A stretch of 64,000 nucleotides of DNA from Escherichia phage EP1. The stretch lies in sequence record OR892555.1; one strand, 5' to 3'. Below, in pieces: positions 19,893 to 57,202 of this stretch (its first letter is position 1; the number at the start of each line of letters is the position of its first letter). The translations under genes were made by a program, and so were the position numbers. The notes under the pieces were generated by a model, which ran no database searches, was not told the origin of the DNA, and saw nothing but the letters and a program-made list of their open reading frames with translations.

Positions 19893-20965
19893 TAAGGAAC
19901 CTCTAAATATCCTGAGTTTAAATCATCTACAACGGTATTCAACAAGTACGCACCGTTTTGCTGTTCTTGGTTAGCATTCTGCTCTTTATCAATTTCCATC
20001 TTCTTAATCATGTATTTCAAAGGTGGTTCTTTAGGAGCTACGAAGTCTCTTGGAATACCAAACATATCATACAATGGTGCAGCGTTATAGTAAACCCACT
20101 CATGCAGAAGTTTTGTATTCAAACCAACTACGGCACGACATTCAGAGAAAATATAATAAGACCATTTCTCTTCACTTTCAACCACTTCATCAAGAATTAC
20201 TTTGATTTCTGGAAGAACCTGACGGAAAGCTTCTTGCCACTCTTCATCTTTCAAAGTTTCTTTCAGTGCTTCAATGTCAATCTTCGTGTGAAGGATTTCA
20301 TCAAGCATAATTTTCTGTACTGCCTGAGCAATACCTTGGAACTTATCTTGTGCATCAAGTGCAAAGGTACATGCAAAGGATGCCATAAAGGATACGCCTT
20401 CCAAGGCTGTTACTGCAAAGAGACCTTTCAAAATCACTTTGTGGAAGTGTAAAGGGTCTTTCTCAAGCAGTGAATCACGAACATAGCCTAAGCGATAGTT
20501 GATACCTTCGTCAAGTAGTTCTTCCAGTGCTCTGTTCACAGTCTTCAGACGGTCTTGCACAGCAGCATTCTGGTTAATCTCATCAAGGATTGTTTCAGGA
20601 TTCTTAATACACTGACGAACAATCTCTGAATAAGTCAAGGCATGAAGGTTCTCAATTTCAGATTGCTTCATAATTGCCGTTGCGTAGATATCATCAGAGA
20701 TGAATGGTGCAAAAGCAAATGCCAAACTCTTAGCAACCTGTGTATCAGCTTCCCACTGCCACTTAAGAATCTCAAGCATTACACCAGACATTGATTCTGG
20801 AACGCTTTCAAAGTCTAATCGTGACTGTTCAAACGGGAACTCATCTTCAGACCAGTCTTGTGCTTTCTGCTGTTTATACAGTTCAAAGATTTTTGGATAG
20901 TGTTTGTTGAGTGAGTCAAAAGTTTTTCGCTCACTCCCTAAAAAGATTGGATGTTGGTTAATCAT
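19892..20965 (-). CDS. nrdB: ribonucleotide reductase small (beta) subunit, class I
   Basis: 357 aa with R2-type di-iron ligand spacing; adjacent to nrdA. Confidence 0.9.
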   Translation of the reverse strand: MINQHPIFLGSERKTFDSLNKHYPKIFELYKQQKAQDWSEDEFPFEQSRLDFESVPESMSGVMLEILKWQWEADTQVAKSLAFAFAPFISDDIYATAIMKQSEIENLHALTYSEIVRQCIKNPETILDEINQNAAVQDRLKTVNRALEELLDEGINYRLGYVRDSLLEKDPLHFHKVILKGLFAVTALEGVSFMASFACTFALDAQDKFQGIAQAVQKIMLDEILHTKIDIEALKETLKDEEWQEAFRQVLPEIKVILDEVVESEEKWSYYIFSECRAVVGLNTKLLHEWVYYNAAPLYDMFGIPRDFVAPKEPPLKYMIKKMEIDKEQNANQEQQNGAYLLNTVVDDLNSGYLEVP

Positions 20966-31895: not shown

Positions 31896-32318
31896 TTAAC
31901 TCTCTCTCATTTTGTTAAGTGTTTGTCGTGATAACTTTAAGCTTTCTGTAGAGGAAAAGTCAAGAACTTTTTCAGACCTTGGGAAGTAGTGTCTATCCCA
32001 TGAACTTTCTACATCGCTAATCAGTGTTGTTAGGTTATCTAAGTCTGTTCCGTTTTGCAACTTCTTTTTTAAAGAATCTATCAAGAAGAGTGTATCTTTT
32101 GCTTTACGCCTCTCAGCAGATATCTCCTTCATATGCTCAAAGACTGAACATTTCATTCTTTCATCGTAACCTTCGGAGAGTTCAATCTCATGTTGAACAT
32201 CAACCATTCGACGATGATGGTAAGCGTACTCCTTTTGAGCAGCAATGTCAAGTTCTTCCAACTTTTTTAAAGCTCTCATGAAGTCAGCTATGTCTGGGTG
32301 AACAAACATTCTCTGCAT
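31896..32318 (-). CDS. hypothetical protein
   Basis: 140-aa ORF, first gene of the minus-strand block. Confidence 0.5.
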   Translation of the reverse strand: MQRMFVHPDIADFMRALKKLEELDIAAQKEYAYHHRRMVDVQHEIELSEGYDERMKCSVFEHMKEISAERRKAKDTLFLIDSLKKKLQNGTDLDNLTTLISDVESSWDRHYFPRSEKVLDFSSTESLKLSRQTLNKMRES

Positions 32319-51616: not shown

Positions 51617-52413
51617 TAATAAGTTCCTTTCTTGTTTGGGTTAACTGAATGCTTCTGCATAGATTTACCACTTCCAGCACCAGTACTAAGAACTTGAGCA
51701 GCGTTTCTTTCAGCTTCATCACTAAAGGTTGTCTGCCCTTTACTGGTATTTGCAGAGCGACCACAAGCAGCCATAGCACGATATTCATCACTTGAAAGTT
51801 CTCTTACACCATTTGATTGTAGGTCATACAGAAGTTGACAGTTTAATTTACCGTTACCTAAAGAAGTTGTAGTATTACCAGTATTCTTCTTTGAAGTTGC
51901 TCCACCATCATTTGTGGTAGCTGTTTTACCAGTTGCTGCTGAAACGTCAGTTTGTCCGACTACAGCTTTAAATTCCACACCTTGAAAAGTCATCTGAATA
52001 CGAAGACCATTTGCAATCGTGTGTTCTTTATAAGCTTTGAAGTTTGTGATAATGCTATCGTCAATCTTAATACCATCTTTACAGATAACAGAAATAATCT
52101 GTTTCTGGTCTCGCCAAGTTTCTACAGTGTCGATAAAGTTTTCTACAAGTTGGCCTTGACGGGTGCGTAATAGGCTACCTTCGTAGCCCACTACAACAAC
52201 ACCAGAGATAGTAATAGTCTTTGGAGCACGTTGAACGTTATCAGTTACAGTCTGTCCAGATTGCATTGTTTGAGTAGTCACCATCATGGGTGAGTCATAC
52301 TCCATACTCTCTGTTGCAGATAATGTCAAAAATGCGTCAACATTATCTCTCAGATGGAAGTAAATACCATCCTTACCAGAGTATTTAATTTGCATATTAG
52401 AATTCCATAACAT
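51616..52413 (-). CDS. putative tail protein
   Basis: 265-aa ORF immediately after tape measure. Confidence 0.4.
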
Positions 52414-54656
52414 TATTCTTCCTCTGGGTAACTTGAGTTAAGAAGGATATCTTCTTGGTGCTTGTCCATGATATCAACCATCTTAGTAGCAATCTGCTTA
52501 CCATCAAGATTGAATGAAACATTCAGAGTCTGTCTAGTCTGCATAGGGAAACCAGAGGGTGTCATCATCATTGGTGTTTGATTGAACTTAGTTGCAAAGT
52601 TATTTAAAGACTCTGACAAGTTGTTCATGATAATATCCCAATTGGACATTCCGTTATCAACAAAGCTACGATTACCTTGAGCATCTACAGAATATTGTGC
52701 AAACTGTAGCTGTCCATTCTGGTCAAAAAACATTGGACGTTTTGGGTTGGTAATGCTTGATACAGCATCTTCAAAAGGCTTTGGAAGAGTAACTTCGTTG
52801 AACCTACCATTGTTCTTTCTGTCTGTAGAGCCAGATAACATCAATGATGAACCAACTGTACCAAGAACCATTCTGGTAGCTGTAACTCCTGCAACACCTG
52901 TAGCTGTTTCTGCTGTAGCTGCTGCACCACCTAGACCAAACTTCTGCATGATTTTTGCAAAGATACCTTCTTCAAAGATACTCTTAACGAATGCTACAGT
53001 GCCACCAAAGATTTTAGCAACCTTAGTAATAGCAGCAATTGCAACACCAATCATAGCAAAGGTTGAAACTAGTTCAGCAGAATCCTTGATAAGTTTCTGT
53101 TGACTTGCATCCAAATCCTTGTACCATGCCATTGCAGAGTAATACAGTGAAGATGTTCTATACATGATATCTGTTACGAAGTCAAGTAAGTTACCAGCAC
53201 CTTTTAACAGGTAACCAATCACTGTACCGAGTGCTTCAGCAGTACCCATAGAACCTTGTAAGAACATTGCAATGGATTGTGAAAGCTGTGAAATACCGTC
53301 GCTAGAGTTGTTAAACAATGCAACTAACATGTTATCCCACATAGACTTCGCTTGACCCATTGAGGTAGCTGTCTGCTTAGATACGGCATTCATACCACCT
53401 GCTGCCTGTACCAACTCAGCCATCTTTTCAGATACCTTTGGAAGTACATCTTCAGCAAGGAGCTTACCGTCTTTCATCAACTTATCAAGTTCTTGTGGGG
53501 TCTTACCAATAGCATCAGCAAATAACTGTACAGCACCTGCTAAACGGTCACCTAACTGACCACGAAGTTCTTCAGCCTGAATCTTACCCTTAGAAGCCAT
53601 CTGTTGGAAAGCAACCATGATACCTTTCAGGTCTTCGTCTGTTGCACCCCTGATACGAGAGAACATTGCAGCGTTCTTATAGAACTCCTGAGTTCCTTGG
53701 AATCCAAGAGCAGGTTGAGCACCAGCAGCAAAGTTTGAGTATTGCTTCATGGTATTTGTGTAGTTCTGTCCAATCTGATGAGCGAACGATGCAGCGAACA
53801 TTCTAGCTTGCTGTGTATCTGCTCCGAAGATAGCTGTTGAGGCTAACTGTGCAGACTGTCTTTTAACACCTGCATCAATTGTCTTCTGAGCCAATTCTAA
53901 GGCTGCATAAGCTGAAACAAAACCACCAATCATCTGGCGTAGAGATGAGTTAGCTCTTTCCTGAAGCCAAGCTGATTCTCTGACTGACTTGAGTCTAGCA
54001 TTTTCTGCAATAACCCAACGCTTGGTAACGTCAATGAGCTTTTTGACTTCCATCTCATATTCACCGACTTTACCAGTTCCCTTATATTTGTTATAAAGAC
54101 CTTGCAAGTTTCCTCTGAAGGAAGCTGCCATTTGGTTACCTTGCCCACCAATAGTTTCAAGGCGACGTGTCAGACCAGAATAGAAGTTGTTGTTAAACAT
54201 TCTTTCCATCTGTCTCTGAGCAATATCAGGTCTTGGAGGTCTTGGGTTGCCACTTCCACCAGTAGGAGGGAAACCAGTACCACCTTTTCTACCACCACGA
54301 ACAGTGACTTTTCCATCAACTTTCATAGCGTCTCTTAAAGCCTTGTTAATTTCCTTGGCAGTTTTTCTACCTTGCGTCTCCAGTCTTTTAAGAGATTTAA
54401 CACCTTGTGAATCAAGGTTAAGGGAGTTGTTGAGTGCTTTATTGATTCTGCCCGAAGCAGTCTGAGCGTTTTTTACAATTCTGTTTAATGCTTCCTGTGA
54501 AGACTTATTAGGTTTCACGTCAAAGGCTTTGTTAATATTACGTTCGATTCGTTGAGCAGACTGCATAGCCATCTTTTCAACTCTCTGCAAACCTTTAACA
54601 ACCTTTTCACTGAAACCCAACTCCACAATAAAGCTATCAACTGTATATTGTGCCAT
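52413..54656 (-). CDS. tail tape measure protein
   Basis: 747 aa, long alpha-helical/coiled-coil character with Gly-rich segments; follows the chaperone pair. Confidence 0.8.
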
Positions 54657-54895
54657 TAAATTTTACCTGCCCTTCTAAGTTCGTTATAAGCAATTTCTTC
54701 TTTGTATGACCTCTGGATTTCTAAATACTGTCGCAGAGATAATAAATCAGAGAAAGTCATTGAGAAGAGTTGGTCGAGTGTTTCTTTACACCCTTCCATA
54801 CCGTAAATAGCAAGCACAAATTTCATCTCATCTGCTTCTTCATAAGTTGCTGCTACAGCCCCATCAGTCAATGGGGTCTGCATAGCACTACTCAT
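54656..54895 (-). CDS. C-terminal extension of the tail assembly chaperone (predicted -1 frameshift product)
   Basis: 79-aa ORF starts 2 nt after the chaperone stop with no RBS; -1 frame from the slippery site is open into it. Confidence 0.5.
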   Translation of the reverse strand: MSSAMQTPLTDGAVAATYEEADEMKFVLAIYGMEGCKETLDQLFSMTFSDLLSLRQYLEIQRSYKEEIAYNELRRAGKI

Positions 54896-54897
54896 GC

Positions 54898-55308
54898 TTA
54901 CTGAGAAGTTAGGCTTTTGAAAATGCTTGCTTCGAAAAAACTTCCGAAATTAGCCTCCAGAGCAAATGCCAAGAAGTCAATAAATTCACCGTAGTTCGCT
55001 TGGAAGTATTTATCTACGTTTAGAGGGAAGTCATCTACAGTTGCACCTTGGAATAACAAAGCAGCCATTGAGTCAATATCGAGTTCATCAATACGGTCAA
55101 AGCAAGCTTCAACTAATTCTTTGAAAGGTACTGCTGTTACACTTTCTTCGCCTTCTTTCTGCTCTTTCCCAGATAAACTTGAAAACATCTGAGCAATTGT
55201 CGGTACAACAACTTTACCGAGTTTCATCGACATTTTAATACCATCTCTTGCACCTAGCAGGACAATATTCACTTTCTTACCATTAATAATTTTAGATTCT
55301 GTCTTCAT
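54898..55308 (-). CDS. tail assembly chaperone
   Basis: 136-aa acidic protein between tube and tape measure; slippery heptamer near its 3' end. Confidence 0.55.
   Translation of the reverse strand: MKTESKIINGKKVNIVLLGARDGIKMSMKLGKVVVPTIAQMFSSLSGKEQKEGEESVTAVPFKELVEACFDRIDELDIDSMAALLFQGATVDDFPLNVDKYFQANYGEFIDFLAFALEANFGSFFEASIFKSLTSQ
54934..54940 (-). other. candidate -1 programmed frameshift slippery heptamer U_UUU_UUC
   Basis: zero-frame codons ...AGU UUU UUC GAA...; -1 frame then reads R S K H F Q K P N F S V S M S S A M Q without a stop. Confidence 0.5.
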
Positions 55309-55342
55309 TGTGATTCCTTAAATTTCTTAGGTTCTATAAACG

Positions 55343-55375
55343 AAAAAAGGGAAGACCTTTTATAGTCTCCCCCTT
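55343..55375 (-). terminator. rho-independent terminator after the tail tube gene
   Basis: hairpin GGGGAGAC...GTCTTCCC followed by U-run on minus strand. Confidence 0.55.
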
Positions 55376-55387
55376 ATTAGGATGTTC

Positions 55388-55834
55388 TTAAACACTTGAC
55401 GCAGGAATCGTAGAAGTGTAGTCTAGCTTCTCACAACCAAAAATCCAAGTTTTAGAGTTCTGGTCACGACCAAGTTCAATCTGTGGAAGTTCCTGCAACC
55501 ATGCGTTAATACCAGTTGCCAGAACAGAACCAGATGGGTCGTAGATTACGAAGTTAGAAGAGATATCTTCTTCAAGTTCCATGTCATCTTGTTTAGCTTG
55601 AATCGCAGAAAGCATCTGGTTAGAGAGTGAAGTCTGCATTAGCTCAATCTCAATAGTACCTGTCTTATCTGCGTTTCTTGTCAGAGCTACCTGACCACCT
55701 GCACCAACAACTGGTGTAACAAGTGGAGAAGTTCTCTGTAGACGTAAGAATGAGTCTGGAGCAAAGCCTTCGATGGCAATACCATTCCAGCTACATACAA
55801 CGTCTTTAGGGGAATATTGCTGATACATAGCCAT
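55388..55834 (-). CDS. tail tube protein
   Basis: 148 aa immediately downstream of sheath. Confidence 0.5.
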   Translation of the reverse strand: MAMYQQYSPKDVVCSWNGIAIEGFAPDSFLRLQRTSPLVTPVVGAGGQVALTRNADKTGTIEIELMQTSLSNQMLSAIQAKQDDMELEEDISSNFVIYDPSGSVLATGINAWLQELPQIELGRDQNSKTWIFGCEKLDYTSTIPASSV

Positions 55835-55849
55835 TCCAATTTACCTCTA

Positions 55850-57202
55850 TTATTCGTAAGCCACTGTACCTTTCAAGTCAACATCCAAGATAGCACCTGC
55901 TAAGATACCTGCGAAGGTAACGTCTTTCAGGATACGAGCTTTCTTGTCTGCCAAAGCAACTTGAGAGGCTTTAGGAACATTAACTGTATAAGATGACAGG
56001 AAGTTTCTGTTAACTGCTCTTTGCAGAGAGGTTTCAATGACCTGACGAATACGGGTAATACCAGTATCATCATAAGTAATCTTACCACCCTTCTGATTAA
56101 TTAGCAAGTCTCTAAGAGAAGTTTTCAAGTCAGATTCTAACCAGTCAACACCACGGATGATATCAATCCATTCACCACCAGAAGTGATACCTCTACGTAC
56201 AACTGGAACACCGCCATCAAGGTCGATGAAGTTGCAGTGACGTACATCCAAAGCGGATTTCTGAATGCTTGTCAGAGGTCTCTGGTTAGCTGGCTGAAGA
56301 GATGCTTCAACACCAGTCAACTGAGCGTTACCCCAAGCAATGGAACCTGCGTCATATGGAGCACCATAAGCGATGTAAGCCATTTCTGGGTAGTCATAAC
56401 TTGCAGTGTGATGCCATAGGCAAACAGTACGTGTGTACATGCTCTTAGCAAGTTGTGCAGGAACATCAGAAGCTGATGCCAATTCAGTACCTTGCAGGGC
56501 AGCTACATCAGAGTTAGCTGTGAAGAAAATCTTCTTACGAGCCTGAATCTCAGAAGCCATTGCCAAGACGAACTGTGTAGTTCTATCTTCAGCAGCAATG
56601 AAGTACCAGTCAGTTGAGTACGTTTCAATTGCAGCCAGAGCAGTTGCAGCAGTATCAGCAGTTGTACCAGCGATTGATACAGTGTTGGTTGTTGATGTAA
56701 CTTTTACGAAGTCATTGTCACCAGCTTTTGTAACAATCATGGTTGCAGAGCTACCAGTACCTGTTACGTTGATAGTAACATCATCTTTGATTGTTTGGTC
56801 AGCTTCAATCTGCTCTTTAAACTGCGTCAGTACAATCAGAGCGGTGTCATCAGCTTGAGCAGTGTATTGGTATGGCTGAGAAACCCCACCACCTACAGCA
56901 ACCGTCAGAGAGTAATCTGTGCTTTCAGTTACTTCATCGGGGATTGAAACTGTATACTGCATAGCACGTCTACCAATATATAGCTGAGTTACTTTTGGAG
57001 TCTGACTCCATAGTTGTTTTGCAGCTTTATAAGCAGCAGTACTTTCACCGAAATCTTCAGCAACTTCAGTCAGAGAAGTATAGCCACGAACCCTTTCTTC
57101 AAAGTTGTCTGTTGACGCTAAGAATAATGGTAGACCAAAACCTTCTCTCGTAGTTCCTGCGGTGTTCAATGTAATATCTACATTAACAATTGGATTCCAC
57201 AT
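55850..57202 (-). CDS. contractile tail sheath protein
   Basis: 450 aa, upstream of tube/chaperone/tape-measure in canonical order. Confidence 0.6.
   Translation of the reverse strand: MWNPIVNVDITLNTAGTTREGFGLPLFLASTDNFEERVRGYTSLTEVAEDFGESTAAYKAAKQLWSQTPKVTQLYIGRRAMQYTVSIPDEVTESTDYSLTVAVGGGVSQPYQYTAQADDTALIVLTQFKEQIEADQTIKDDVTINVTGTGSSATMIVTKAGDNDFVKVTSTTNTVSIAGTTADTAATALAAIETYSTDWYFIAAEDRTTQFVLAMASEIQARKKIFFTANSDVAALQGTELASASDVPAQLAKSMYTRTVCLWHHTASYDYPEMAYIAYGAPYDAGSIAWGNAQLTGVEASLQPANQRPLTSIQKSALDVRHCNFIDLDGGVPVVRRGITSGGEWIDIIRGVDWLESDLKTSLRDLLINQKGGKITYDDTGITRIRQVIETSLQRAVNRNFLSSYTVNVPKASQVALADKKARILKDVTFAGILAGAILDVDLKGTVAYE

What the first reader, a model, noticed from the sequence alone, without database searches (positions are those of the whole stretch)
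54656..55308. Predicted -1 programmed ribosomal frameshift in the tail assembly chaperone
The chaperone gene (54898-55308) ends ...GGA AGU UUU UUC GAA..., giving the slippery heptamer U_UUU_UUC at 54934-54940, 12 codons before its stop. The next ORF (54656-54895) starts 2 nt after that stop and has no Shine-Dalgarno. Read in the -1 frame from the slippery site the sequence is open (R S K H F Q K P N F S V S M S S A M Q ...) into and through that ORF. This is the conserved G/GT-type chaperone frameshift placed between tube and tape-measure genes, predicting a short product and a longer fusion of roughly 215 aa.
Basis: partly seen in the sequence, partly recalled or inferred. Interest (0 to 1): 0.5.

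Follow-up and report, generated by a model that had tools for sequence, protein, structure and literature searches.

The report
Tail chaperone frameshift, already known
This Felix O1-like E. coli phage carries the standard slippery site that makes a short and a long form of its tail assembly chaperone; the signal is real and deeply conserved, but it is an ordinary, already published prediction for this phage family.

Summary
On the minus strand, a 136-aa tail assembly chaperone gene (54898-55308; Pfam PF21822, E 1e-21) lies between the sheath/tube genes and the tape measure gene. It contains an in-phase U_UUU_UUC heptamer at 54940-54934. The -1 frame opens 9 nt upstream of the heptamer and runs through the 79-codon ORF 54656-54895, predicting a 217-aa fusion. 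That ORF has no Shine-Dalgarno sequence, unlike ten neighbouring genes. All 62 related loci analysed (42 distinct sequences) keep the heptamer in phase with an open -1 frame. They include Ounavirinae genera at 43-49% identity, Vequintavirinae at 25-30% and a 65% GC soil contig. Many lack any start codon for the downstream part. Sequence variation nearly vanishes in the dual-coded overlap, and the downstream ORF evolves as coding sequence in the -1 frame. The interpretation, a lambda G/GT-type programmed -1 frameshift, is supported. It is not new. GenBank records of Citrobacter phages Moogle and Michonne annotate the slippage at the homologous site, and a 2025 paper reports the conserved motif in 231 Andersonviridae phages. 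No experimental proof was found for this family. The closest relatives, including SUSP2, still annotate two separate genes. Minor extras are an upstream GGAGG and a downstream hairpin.

The parts
54898..55308 (-). Tail assembly chaperone gene, the short 'G'-type product of 136 aa, made by standard 0-frame translation
   Evidence: ORF list. Pfam PF21822 Phage_TAC_15 E 1e-21. phrog_1613 tail assembly chaperone E 2.5e-46. SD-like AAGGA lies 5 nt upstream of the ATG.
54934..54940 (-). Slippery heptamer U_UUU_UUC in X_XXY_YYZ phase (codons AGU UUU UUC = S123 F124 F125), the predicted -1 slip site
   Evidence: NNT TTT TTC is invariant in 37 of 37 distinct sequences while neighbouring codons vary synonymously. 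It is present in phase in all 62 analysed related loci, 42 distinct contexts.
54656..54934 (-). The -1 frame 'T' extension read after the slip (92 codons plus stop). Predicted long product = join(55308..54934, 54934..54656), 217 aa
   Evidence: The -1 frame is closed by a TAA 9 nt upstream of the heptamer and is open from 54949 to 54656. Fusion proteins align across Ounavirinae and Vequintavirinae. Substitutions in the T-only part follow a coding pattern in the -1 frame: 0.060/0.029/0.163 at codon positions 1/2/3.
54656..54895 (-). The 79-codon ORF as a gene caller sees it (ATG at 54895). It is annotated as a separate 'tail assembly chaperone' in SUSP2, CHB7 and mistaenkt. It is most likely only the C-terminal part of the fusion
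   Evidence: phrog_4963 E 4e-53. No SD. The ATG is not conserved: ATA in L020, and the first -1 frame ATG lies 65-119 nt past the chaperone stop in the distant Ounavirinae loci L032, L033, L034, L037 and L038. Annotations.
54898..54933 (-). Dual-coded overlap between the heptamer and the chaperone stop (0 frame EASIFKSLTSQ*, -1 frame RSKHFQKPNFSV)
   Evidence: Mean pairwise variation is 0.021/0.021/0.000 at the three codon positions, against 0.094/0.049/0.256 in the rest of the chaperone gene. The block TTTTTTCGAAGCAAGCATTTTCAAAA is identical in Kolesnikvirus, whose chaperone is 43% identical.
54919..54922 (-). In-phase U_UUC tetramer (AU U_UUC) inside the overlap, a possible minor alternative slip site
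   Evidence: Read directly from the sequence. Z_ZZN tetramers are recognised -1 shift motifs in E. coli (PMC4066793). Its use here is inferred, not shown.
54954..54958 (-). Shine-Dalgarno-like GGAGG 13 nt 5' of the heptamer, a possible upstream stimulator of the dnaX type
   Evidence: Anti-SD duplex -9.3 kcal/mol. Present in 28 of 29 close relatives, in Wc4-1 and in FENT2, but absent from Kolesnikvirus and LPML1-like phages. The Glu codon here is GAG in 31 of 37 sequences, although neighbouring genes use GAA:GAG at 101:32. Function is inferred.
54841..54896 (-). RNA hairpin that starts 1 nt after the chaperone stop, 37 nt after the heptamer, and buries the ATG at 54895
   Evidence: MFE of the 101-nt stretch is -31.2 kcal/mol, z = -3.1. 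The consensus fold has 3 pairs with compensatory changes and 97.9% of cells paired in 13 distinct sequences. It is too far downstream to be a classical -1 stimulator and is not evident in distant relatives.
55388..55834 (-). Tail tube protein gene (context)
   Evidence: phrog_280 E 1.9e-47 and PF11681 KPP10_Orf10.
55850..57202 (-). Tail sheath gene (context)
   Evidence: phrog_205 tail sheath E 6e-120 and DUF3383.
52413..54656 (-). Tape measure protein gene (context). Its ATG overlaps the stop of the -1 frame ORF (TAATG)
   Evidence: phrog_4036 (E-value reported as 0) and PF20155 TMP_3. SD -8.8 kcal/mol.

Best explanation
This is a lambda G/GT-type programmed -1 ribosomal frameshift in the tail assembly chaperone gene of a Suspvirus (Andersonviridae, Ounavirinae; Felix O1-like myovirus).

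Most ribosomes translate 55308-54898 and terminate, producing the 136-aa chaperone. A minority slip back one base when tRNA-Phe occupies UUU (P site) and UUC (A site) of U_UUU_UUC at 54940-54934. They re-pair on UUU UUU and continue in the -1 frame (CGA AGC AAG ...) to the stop at 54656. This yields a 217-aa fusion that shares its first 125 residues with the short form.

By analogy with lambda gpG/gpGT, the shared N-terminal domain would coat the tape measure protein. The -1 encoded C-terminal domain would recruit the tube protein, and the fixed slippage rate would set the ratio of the two forms.

Shown here: the anatomy, the family assignment, the conservation, the dual-coding signature and the lack of an independent start. 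Inferred: the slippage event itself, its efficiency, and the roles of the two domains.
For: - Anatomy and phase.
- Chaperone family and gene order.
- The heptamer NNT TTT TTC is invariant in 37 of 37 distinct sequences while adjacent Phe, Asn, Ala and Leu codons vary synonymously.
- In-phase TTTTTTC with an open -1 frame occurs in all 62 analysed related loci, 42 distinct contexts. These include Kolesnikvirus and Wc4-1 (43-47% identity), Vequintavirinae (25-30%) and a 65% GC soil contig.
- F124 and F125 are two of only six invariant residues in the chaperone alignment.
- The first -1 frame ATG lies far downstream in distant relatives, and it is ATA in Felixounavirus contig L020.
- The window's downstream ATGs have no SD.
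- Variation is suppressed in the overlap, and the T part shows a coding-type substitution pattern in the -1 frame.
- Negative control: two in-phase A_AAA_AAG heptamers in gene 31896-32318 are not conserved in the same phages.
- UUY A-site codons and all-pyrimidine heptamers are in the frameshift-prone class in E. coli (PMC4066793).
- Slippage is annotated at the homologous site in Moogle and Michonne. It is published in PMC4319497, PMC4591319, PMC5543628 and PMC12846349.
- The lambda mechanism is summarised in PMC5009743.
Against: - I found no protein-level evidence for this phage or its family.
- No stimulatory RNA structure lies at the usual 5-9 nt spacing (z = +0.45).
- In this window an ATG sits 2 nt after the chaperone stop, so termination-reinitiation could contribute some free T product.
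- F-F is conserved at the protein level, which explains part of the nucleotide conservation, though not the invariant codon choice.
- The exact slip position, heptamer or the U_UUC tetramer 12 nt downstream, cannot be decided from sequence.
Confidence: 0.9

Rival explanations
1. The two ORFs are independent genes. The 79-aa ORF (54656-54895) would be translated on its own, by termination-reinitiation at the ATG 2 nt after the chaperone stop, and the heptamer would be an incidental Phe-Phe codon pair.
For: The ATG at 54895 lies 2 nt after TAA. Many GenBank records annotate two separate CDS. In a single genome, in-phase heptamers that run into the next gene occur by chance in about 2 of 90 other genes.
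Against: There is no SD. The ATG is buried in a stable hairpin. The ATG is lost in L020, and the first -1 frame ATG lies 65-119 nt past the chaperone stop in the distant Ounavirinae loci L032, L033, L034, L037 and L038, although the conserved -1 sequence upstream of it stays open. Codon choice at the heptamer is invariant over 42 distinct contexts. Variation collapses in the overlap.
Confidence: 0.05
2. The long product arises by transcriptional slippage. RNA polymerase would add one extra U while copying the T6 run, giving an mRNA subpopulation in which chaperone and T are in frame. The protein would be identical to the ribosomal frameshift product.
For: The site is a homopolymeric T6 run, and the predicted protein sequence would be the same (S-F-F-R...). 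Homopolymer runs are avoided in this genome, as PMC4066793 notes for U7 and A7 in E. coli.
Against: From my own knowledge of the field, productive transcriptional slippage in bacteria generally needs runs of about 8-9 or more. The run is exactly six in every relative and always ends in C, never extended to T7 by the synonymous TTT. The site fits the tandem-slippage heptamer rule in phase.
Confidence: 0.04
3. The slip occurs mainly at a different site in the overlap, for example the in-phase U_UUC tetramer at 54922-54919. This would give a fusion with junction ...FFEASIF|QKP... instead of ...FF|RSKHFQKP....
For: The tetramer is in phase, lies inside the open -1 window, and is conserved in Ounavirinae. 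Tetramers can promote -1 shifting in E. coli (PMC4066793).
Against: From my own knowledge, heptamers allow re-pairing of both tRNAs and are generally far more efficient than tetramers; PMC4066793 covers both motif types. In Vequintavirinae the homologous position reads G GUU UCG, which has no such tetramer, while the heptamer persists. The -1 peptide F-F-R is conserved directly after the heptamer.
Confidence: 0.03

Closest known systems
Phage lambda gpG / gpGT tail assembly chaperones (Levin et al. 1993; Xu, Hendrix & Duda 2004, 2013, 2014; reviewed in PMC5009743)
   Same: Two overlapping ORFs lie between the major tail/tube gene and the tape measure gene. [quoted passage not shown] No strong downstream stimulatory structure is needed.
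   Different: The heptamer is U_UUU_UUC (tRNA-Phe) rather than G_GGA_AAG (tRNA-Gly/Lys). The phage has a contractile tail. There is no detectable sequence similarity to gpG beyond membership of a Pfam TAC family. The ratio and the binding partners are untested here.
Citrobacter phages Moogle, Michonne and Mijalis (Mooglevirus, Ounavirinae) tape measure chaperone frameshift
   Same: These are orthologous genes (76% identical chaperone) with the same T_TTT_TTC heptamer at the homologous position. It is stated in PMC4319497, PMC4591319 and PMC5543628.
   Different: The genus and host differ. Those chaperones are 133 aa with a 212-aa fusion. In those phages, too, it is an annotation-level prediction only.
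TAC-N / TAC-NC frameshift of Vandenendeviridae (Pakpunavirus Adele) and Andersonviridae (PMC12846349, 2025)
   Same: [quoted passage not shown] It covers 56 alleles of Vandenendeviridae and 231 Andersonviridae phages, the family to which this window belongs.
   Different: That work does not single out Suspvirus. I additionally see the motif in Vequintavirinae and in a GC-rich metagenomic contig. I also record the dual-coding signature, the upstream GGAGG and the hairpin after the stop.
Phage P2 E / E+E' tail chaperone frameshift (Christie et al. 2002; cited in PMC5009743 as having 2-3 fold higher efficiency than lambda)
   Same: A contractile-tailed phage with a -1 frameshift between the tube and tape measure genes, on a U-rich heptamer. 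The P2 heptamer sequence is from my memory and was not checked here.
   Different: The protein family is unrelated at sequence level, and P2 is a temperate phage of a different lineage.
E. coli dnaX and IS911/IS3-type -1 frameshift signals
   Same: An in-phase heptamer plus an upstream Shine-Dalgarno-like element. Here GGAGG lies 13 nt upstream, inside the 6-17 nt search window used in PMC4066793.
   Different: The upstream element is not conserved in all relatives. There is no hairpin at 5-9 nt downstream. [quoted passage not shown]

Membership tests
G/GT-type tail assembly chaperone with programmed -1 frameshift (Xu, Hendrix & Duda 2004) | A pair of ORFs located between the major tail (tube) gene and the tape measure gene | tested here: met
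   The minus-strand order is sheath 55850-57202, tube 55388-55834, chaperone 54898-55308, ORF 54656-54895, tape measure 52413-54656.
G/GT-type tail assembly chaperone with programmed -1 frameshift (Xu, Hendrix & Duda 2004) | The upstream ORF encodes a tail assembly chaperone family protein of about 100-150 aa | tested here: met
   136 aa. PF21822 Phage_TAC_15 E 1e-21, above the gathering score. phrog_1613 E 2.5e-46. A fold check failed: single-sequence AlphaFold2 gave pLDDT 40. No PDB sequence relative was found.
G/GT-type tail assembly chaperone with programmed -1 frameshift (Xu, Hendrix & Duda 2004) | The second ORF is in the -1 frame and open from within the 3' end of the first ORF | tested here: met
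   The -1 frame is open from 54949 to 54656, with a 52-nt overlap.
G/GT-type tail assembly chaperone with programmed -1 frameshift (Xu, Hendrix & Duda 2004) | A canonical X_XXY_YYZ slippery heptamer in phase inside the overlap | tested here: met
   U_UUU_UUC at 54940-54934, the only in-phase heptamer in the overlap.
G/GT-type tail assembly chaperone with programmed -1 frameshift (Xu, Hendrix & Duda 2004) | The slippery site and the frame arrangement are conserved in relatives despite sequence divergence | tested here: met
   62 of 62 analysed loci, 42 distinct contexts, down to about 25% protein identity. The only exception seen is an UNVERIFIED record full of indels.
G/GT-type tail assembly chaperone with programmed -1 frameshift (Xu, Hendrix & Duda 2004) | The downstream ORF lacks its own translation initiation signals | tested here: met
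   No SD in the window. The ATG is present in the window but absent or far downstream in L020 and in the distant Ounavirinae loci L032, L033, L034, L037 and L038, and likewise in the Vequintavirinae -1 frame translations.
G/GT-type tail assembly chaperone with programmed -1 frameshift (Xu, Hendrix & Duda 2004) | Two proteins, short and fusion, are made at a fixed low ratio by ribosomal slippage | not testable with these tools
   Needs proteomics or a reporter assay. I found no published data for Ounavirinae.
G/GT-type tail assembly chaperone with programmed -1 frameshift (Xu, Hendrix & Duda 2004) | Both products are required for tail assembly and are absent from virions. The G domain binds the tape measure and the T domain binds the tail tube protein | not testable with these tools
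   Inferred from lambda (PMC5009743).
dnaX / IS3-type stimulated -1 frameshift signal | Upstream SD-like element and/or a downstream hairpin at about 5-9 nt that is conserved with the site | tested here: inconclusive
   GGAGG lies 13 nt upstream in the window and in most close relatives, but not in Kolesnikvirus or LPML1-like phages. There is no significant structure directly downstream. A conserved hairpin begins only 37 nt downstream.
Transcriptional slippage recoding site | A long homopolymer run, typically 8-9 or more (threshold from my own knowledge) | tested here: not met
   The run is exactly T6 followed by C in all 42 distinct contexts.

The most novel reading that the evidence does not exclude
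The same U_UUU_UUC-G signal has stayed fixed across Andersonviridae, Vequintavirinae and even a 65% GC soil phage. In the Felix O1-like clade it comes with an almost invariant 26-nt downstream block, an upstream GGAGG at 13 nt, and a covarying hairpin that starts 1 nt after the 0-frame stop and buries the downstream ATG. Together these could be a distinct, multi-part way of setting the chaperone ratio. The hairpin could block reinitiation on the T ORF, or act on terminating ribosomes, rather than stimulating slippage in the classical way.
Probability: 0.15. Interest if true: 0.35.

Novelty: already known. Interest (0 to 1): 0.12.

Why it matters
The main value is practical. The closest relatives of this phage (SUSP2 RefSeq, CHB7, mistaenkt, EcSzw-2) annotate two separate 'chaperone' or hypothetical genes, sometimes from an arbitrary internal ATG. 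The correct annotation is one gene with a ribosomal-slippage join that gives a 217-aa product. The site is also a clean, deeply conserved example of a U6C slippery heptamer used in enterobacterial hosts. It could serve as a natural test case for tRNA-Phe-mediated -1 slippage without a classical downstream stimulator. It does not open a new question, because the phenomenon is textbook and was already predicted for this family.

Tried and rejected
- Downstream stimulatory structure at the canonical spacing: the 49 nt after the heptamer fold no better than shuffles (z = +0.45). Rejected.
- The hairpin 37 nt downstream is real in the close clade but too distant to be a classical stimulator, and it is not visible in distant relatives. 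I kept it only as a side observation.
- Fold-level confirmation of the chaperone: single-sequence AlphaFold2 gave pLDDT 40, which is unusable, so I ran no fold search. The PDB sequence search and NCBIfam found nothing for the fusion.
- An IMG/VR pattern scan with the hexamer left free returned the same 31 contigs as before, all with T6. It added no diversity.
- Literature searches for experimental proof in Felix O1-like or rV5-like phages found only annotation-level statements.
- Searching PMC4066793 for the exact heptamer string failed because of the paper's notation. I could cite only its general rules.
- Script errors. One script hit the time limit because a loop ran past the end of a truncated locus; it was fixed. 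The translations printed were out of frame and were redone. A regex was wrong, and the tally was redone.
- I considered and rejected as signals the other in-phase heptamers near gene ends (19916-19922, 51634-51640) and the two A_AAA_AAG sites in gene 31896-32318. The A_AAA_AAG sites are not conserved.
Full report
**Identity of the window.** The region is 99% identical to Escherichia phages EcSzw-2, SUSP2 and related phages. These belong to the genus Suspvirus, subfamily Ounavirinae, family Andersonviridae, and are Felix O1-like myoviruses. The genes of interest lie on the minus strand:
- sheath, 55850-57202 (phrog_205, DUF3383)
- tube, 55388-55834 (phrog_280, PF11681)
- a 136-aa ORF, 54898-55308
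- a 79-aa ORF, 54656-54895
- tape measure protein, 52413-54656 (phrog_4036, PF20155)

The 136-aa protein matches Pfam PF21822 (Phage_TAC_15, E 1e-21) and phrog_1613 'tail assembly chaperone' (E 2.5e-46). The 79-aa ORF matches phrog_4963, also labelled tail assembly chaperone.

**Check of the observation.** The chaperone gene ends GGA AGU UUU UUC GAA GCA AGC AUU UUC AAA AGC CUA ACU UCU CAG UAA.
- TTTTTTC occupies 54940-54934, and its first U is a third codon position. It is therefore a canonical in-phase X_XXY_YYZ heptamer.
- The -1 frame is closed by a TAA 9 nt upstream of the heptamer and is then open to 54656. The slip must occur within a 52-nt window, and this is the only heptamer in that window.
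The fusion is 217 aa.
- The downstream ATG lies 2 nt after the stop.
- Its anti-SD pairing energy is -0.1 kcal/mol, and -2.2 for the second ATG at 54883. Ten neighbouring genes give -3.9 to -8.8 at proper spacing.

**Is it more than chance?** Within this one genome, only weakly. There are 63 in-phase heptamers of any kind in 91 ORFs. Three of them, this one included, have a -1 frame that runs far past the 0-frame stop, simply because genes are tightly packed. TTTTTTC is depleted in the window (9 found against 26 ± 5.5 expected), and this is the only in-phase U6-type heptamer. The strength of the case comes from comparison with relatives.

**Comparative evidence.** I collected loci from three sources:
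- GenBank phages
- IMG/VR
- metagenomes

[quoted passage not shown] The set includes:
- Felixounavirus and Mooglevirus (76-85% protein identity)
- Kolesnikvirus, Pectobacterium phage Wc4-1 and LPML1-like phages (43-49%)
- three Vequintavirinae genera (25-30%)
- a soil contig of 65% GC (L091), where the A/T-only heptamer stands out

In a codon alignment of 37 distinct sequences, the three codons NNT TTT TTC never vary. Nearby codons do vary synonymously: Phe115 is TTT 29 and TTC 5, Asn120 is AAT 7 and AAC 30, and Ala116 uses three codons. Phe124 and Phe125 are two of only six invariant residues of the chaperone alignment.

The downstream ATG of the window is not conserved. It is ATA in Felixounavirus contig L020. 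In the distant Ounavirinae loci L032, L033, L034, L037 and L038 the first -1 frame ATG lies 65-119 nt past the chaperone stop, and the Vequintavirinae -1 frames likewise have no methionine near the stop. The sequence upstream of those ATGs stays open and aligns as protein.

Mean pairwise variation at codon positions 1/2/3 is as follows:

| Region | Pos. 1 | Pos. 2 | Pos. 3 |
|---|---|---|---|
| Chaperone-only part | 0.094 | 0.049 | 0.256 |
| T-only part (-1 frame) | 0.060 | 0.029 | 0.163 |
| 12 codons after the heptamer | 0.021 | 0.021 | 0.000 |

The T-only part therefore evolves as coding sequence in the -1 frame, and the overlap shows the signature of dual coding.

As a negative control, two in-phase A_AAA_AAG heptamers in an unrelated gene (31896-32318) are not conserved in the same phages. 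One UNVERIFIED GenBank record has T5 at the site, but it carries many other indels.

**Mechanism.** The best explanation is tandem -1 slippage of tRNA-Phe on U_UUU_UUC. It gives a major 136-aa chaperone and a minor 217-aa fusion.
- In E. coli, UUN and AAN A-site codons are the most shift-prone. Homogeneous (all-pyrimidine) codons and heptamers shift better than heterogeneous ones (PMC4066793).
- There is no significant structure directly downstream. This is usual for G/GT-type sites.
- Two possible modulators were seen. A GGAGG lies 13 nt upstream (54958-54954). It is kept in 28 of 29 close relatives, in Wc4-1 and in FENT2, but not in Kolesnikvirus.
- The second is a stable hairpin (54896-54841, z = -3.1). 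It begins 1 nt after the chaperone stop and buries the ATG at 54895. It has three compensatory pairs among 13 distinct sequences of the close clade.

Neither modulator is universal, and their roles are inferred. The functional roles of the two protein forms are inferred from lambda (PMC5009743): the N-terminal domain on the tape measure, the T domain recruiting tube protein, and the ratio set by slippage efficiency.

**Rivals.**
- Independent translation of the 79-aa ORF is contradicted by the missing SD, the buried ATG, the loss of the ATG in relatives and the invariant codon choice.
- Transcriptional slippage would give the same protein. However, the run is only six and is never extended to T7.
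- A slip at the in-phase U_UUC tetramer (54922-54919) cannot be excluded as a minor route. It is absent from Vequintavirinae, where the heptamer persists.

**What is known.** The arrangement is the conserved tail assembly chaperone frameshift of Xu, Hendrix and Duda (2004).
- For this lineage it is already annotated. Citrobacter phages Moogle and Michonne carry a two-part CDS, and Michonne's note 'ribosomal slippage (47149)' maps into the homologous heptamer.
- The genome announcements for Moogle, Michonne and Mijalis state it (PMC4319497, PMC4591319, PMC5543628).
- A 2025 paper on Pseudomonas phage Adele reports an invariant GTTTTT motif and an open -1 frame in Vandenendeviridae, and the same motif in 231 Andersonviridae phages (PMC12846349).
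- I found no experimental demonstration for this family.
- Many records, including the nearest relatives of the window, still annotate two separate genes or omit the second one.

**Verdict.** The novelty rating is 'already known'. Interest is low. The value lies in correcting annotation and in a well-conserved U6C example. There is a small chance that the accompanying GGAGG and the hairpin after the stop form an unusual regulatory arrangement.

Noticed in passing
window 55338-55375 (- strand): A terminator-like hairpin (12 pairs) followed by a T-run lies in the 79-nt gap between the tube gene and the chaperone gene. The same place is annotated as a terminator in phage Michonne. It may lower transcription of the chaperone and tape measure genes relative to sheath and tube.
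   Followed up: partly
window 54841-54896 (- strand): A stable hairpin starts 1 nt after the chaperone stop and buries the ATG at 54895 (z = -3.1). It has three compensatory base-pair changes among Suspvirus, Felixounavirus and Mooglevirus sequences. It lies 37 nt from the heptamer, too far for a classical frameshift stimulator, and is not evident in distant relatives.
   Followed up: partly
window 54954-54958 (- strand): A Shine-Dalgarno-like GGAGG lies 13 nt upstream of the slippery heptamer. It is kept by use of the rarer GAG codon in 31 of 37 sequences but is absent from Kolesnikvirus and LPML1-like phages. It could be a dnaX-type upstream stimulator.
   Followed up: partly
window 32064-32070 and 32262-32268 (- strand), gene 31896-32318: Two in-phase A_AAA_AAG heptamers, the most shift-prone motif in E. 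coli, occur in one 140-aa gene of unknown function (phrog_4039). A -1 slip at either would truncate the protein. They are not conserved in related phages, so they are probably incidental. I used them as a negative control.
   Followed up: yes
window 19916-19922 and 51634-51640 (- strand): In-phase T_TTA_AAC lies 10 codons before the stop of the ribonucleotide reductase small subunit gene. In-phase C_CCA_AAC lies 8 codons before the stop of the gene after the tape measure. Both have -1 frames that run into the next gene. This is probably a chance result of tight gene packing. I did not check conservation.
   Followed up: no
whole window: TTTTTTC (9 found against 26 expected) and AAAAAAG (11 against 28) are both depleted about 2.5-3 fold relative to dinucleotide-preserving shuffles. 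This is consistent with avoidance of slippery or homopolymeric runs.
   Followed up: partly
L091 (soil metagenome contig Ga0247667_1000408), heptamer at 1875-1881: A 65% GC contig encodes a chaperone 27% identical to the window's. It still carries T_TTT_TTC in phase, with a 199-nt overlap and an open -1 frame. The signal has survived a large shift in base composition.
   Followed up: partly
L020 (IMGVR_UViG_3300045988_004167), about 2401-2403: This Felixounavirus contig has ATA where its relatives have the ATG of the downstream ORF. The matching change keeps the hairpin pair (G-U to A-U). No other start codon occurs for 69 nt.
   Followed up: partly
L043 (MG969406.1, UNVERIFIED Salmonella phage GE_vB_B3): This record has T5 instead of T6 at the slippery site and several other frame breaks within the chaperone gene. 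These look like homopolymer sequencing errors rather than biology.
   Followed up: partly
L037 (NC_015292.1 phiEa104) 113-1472; H34/H35/H74 rows: Annotation oddities appear in relatives. The phiEa104 sheath gene is split into two CDS. The chaperone is labelled 'Hc1 head closure protein' in a VpaE1 record (LR597663.1), 'tape-measure protein' in BPSELC-1 and 'putative tape measure protein' in Sf13. An Ounavirinae genome is deposited as 'Listeria phage LPML1'.
   Followed up: no
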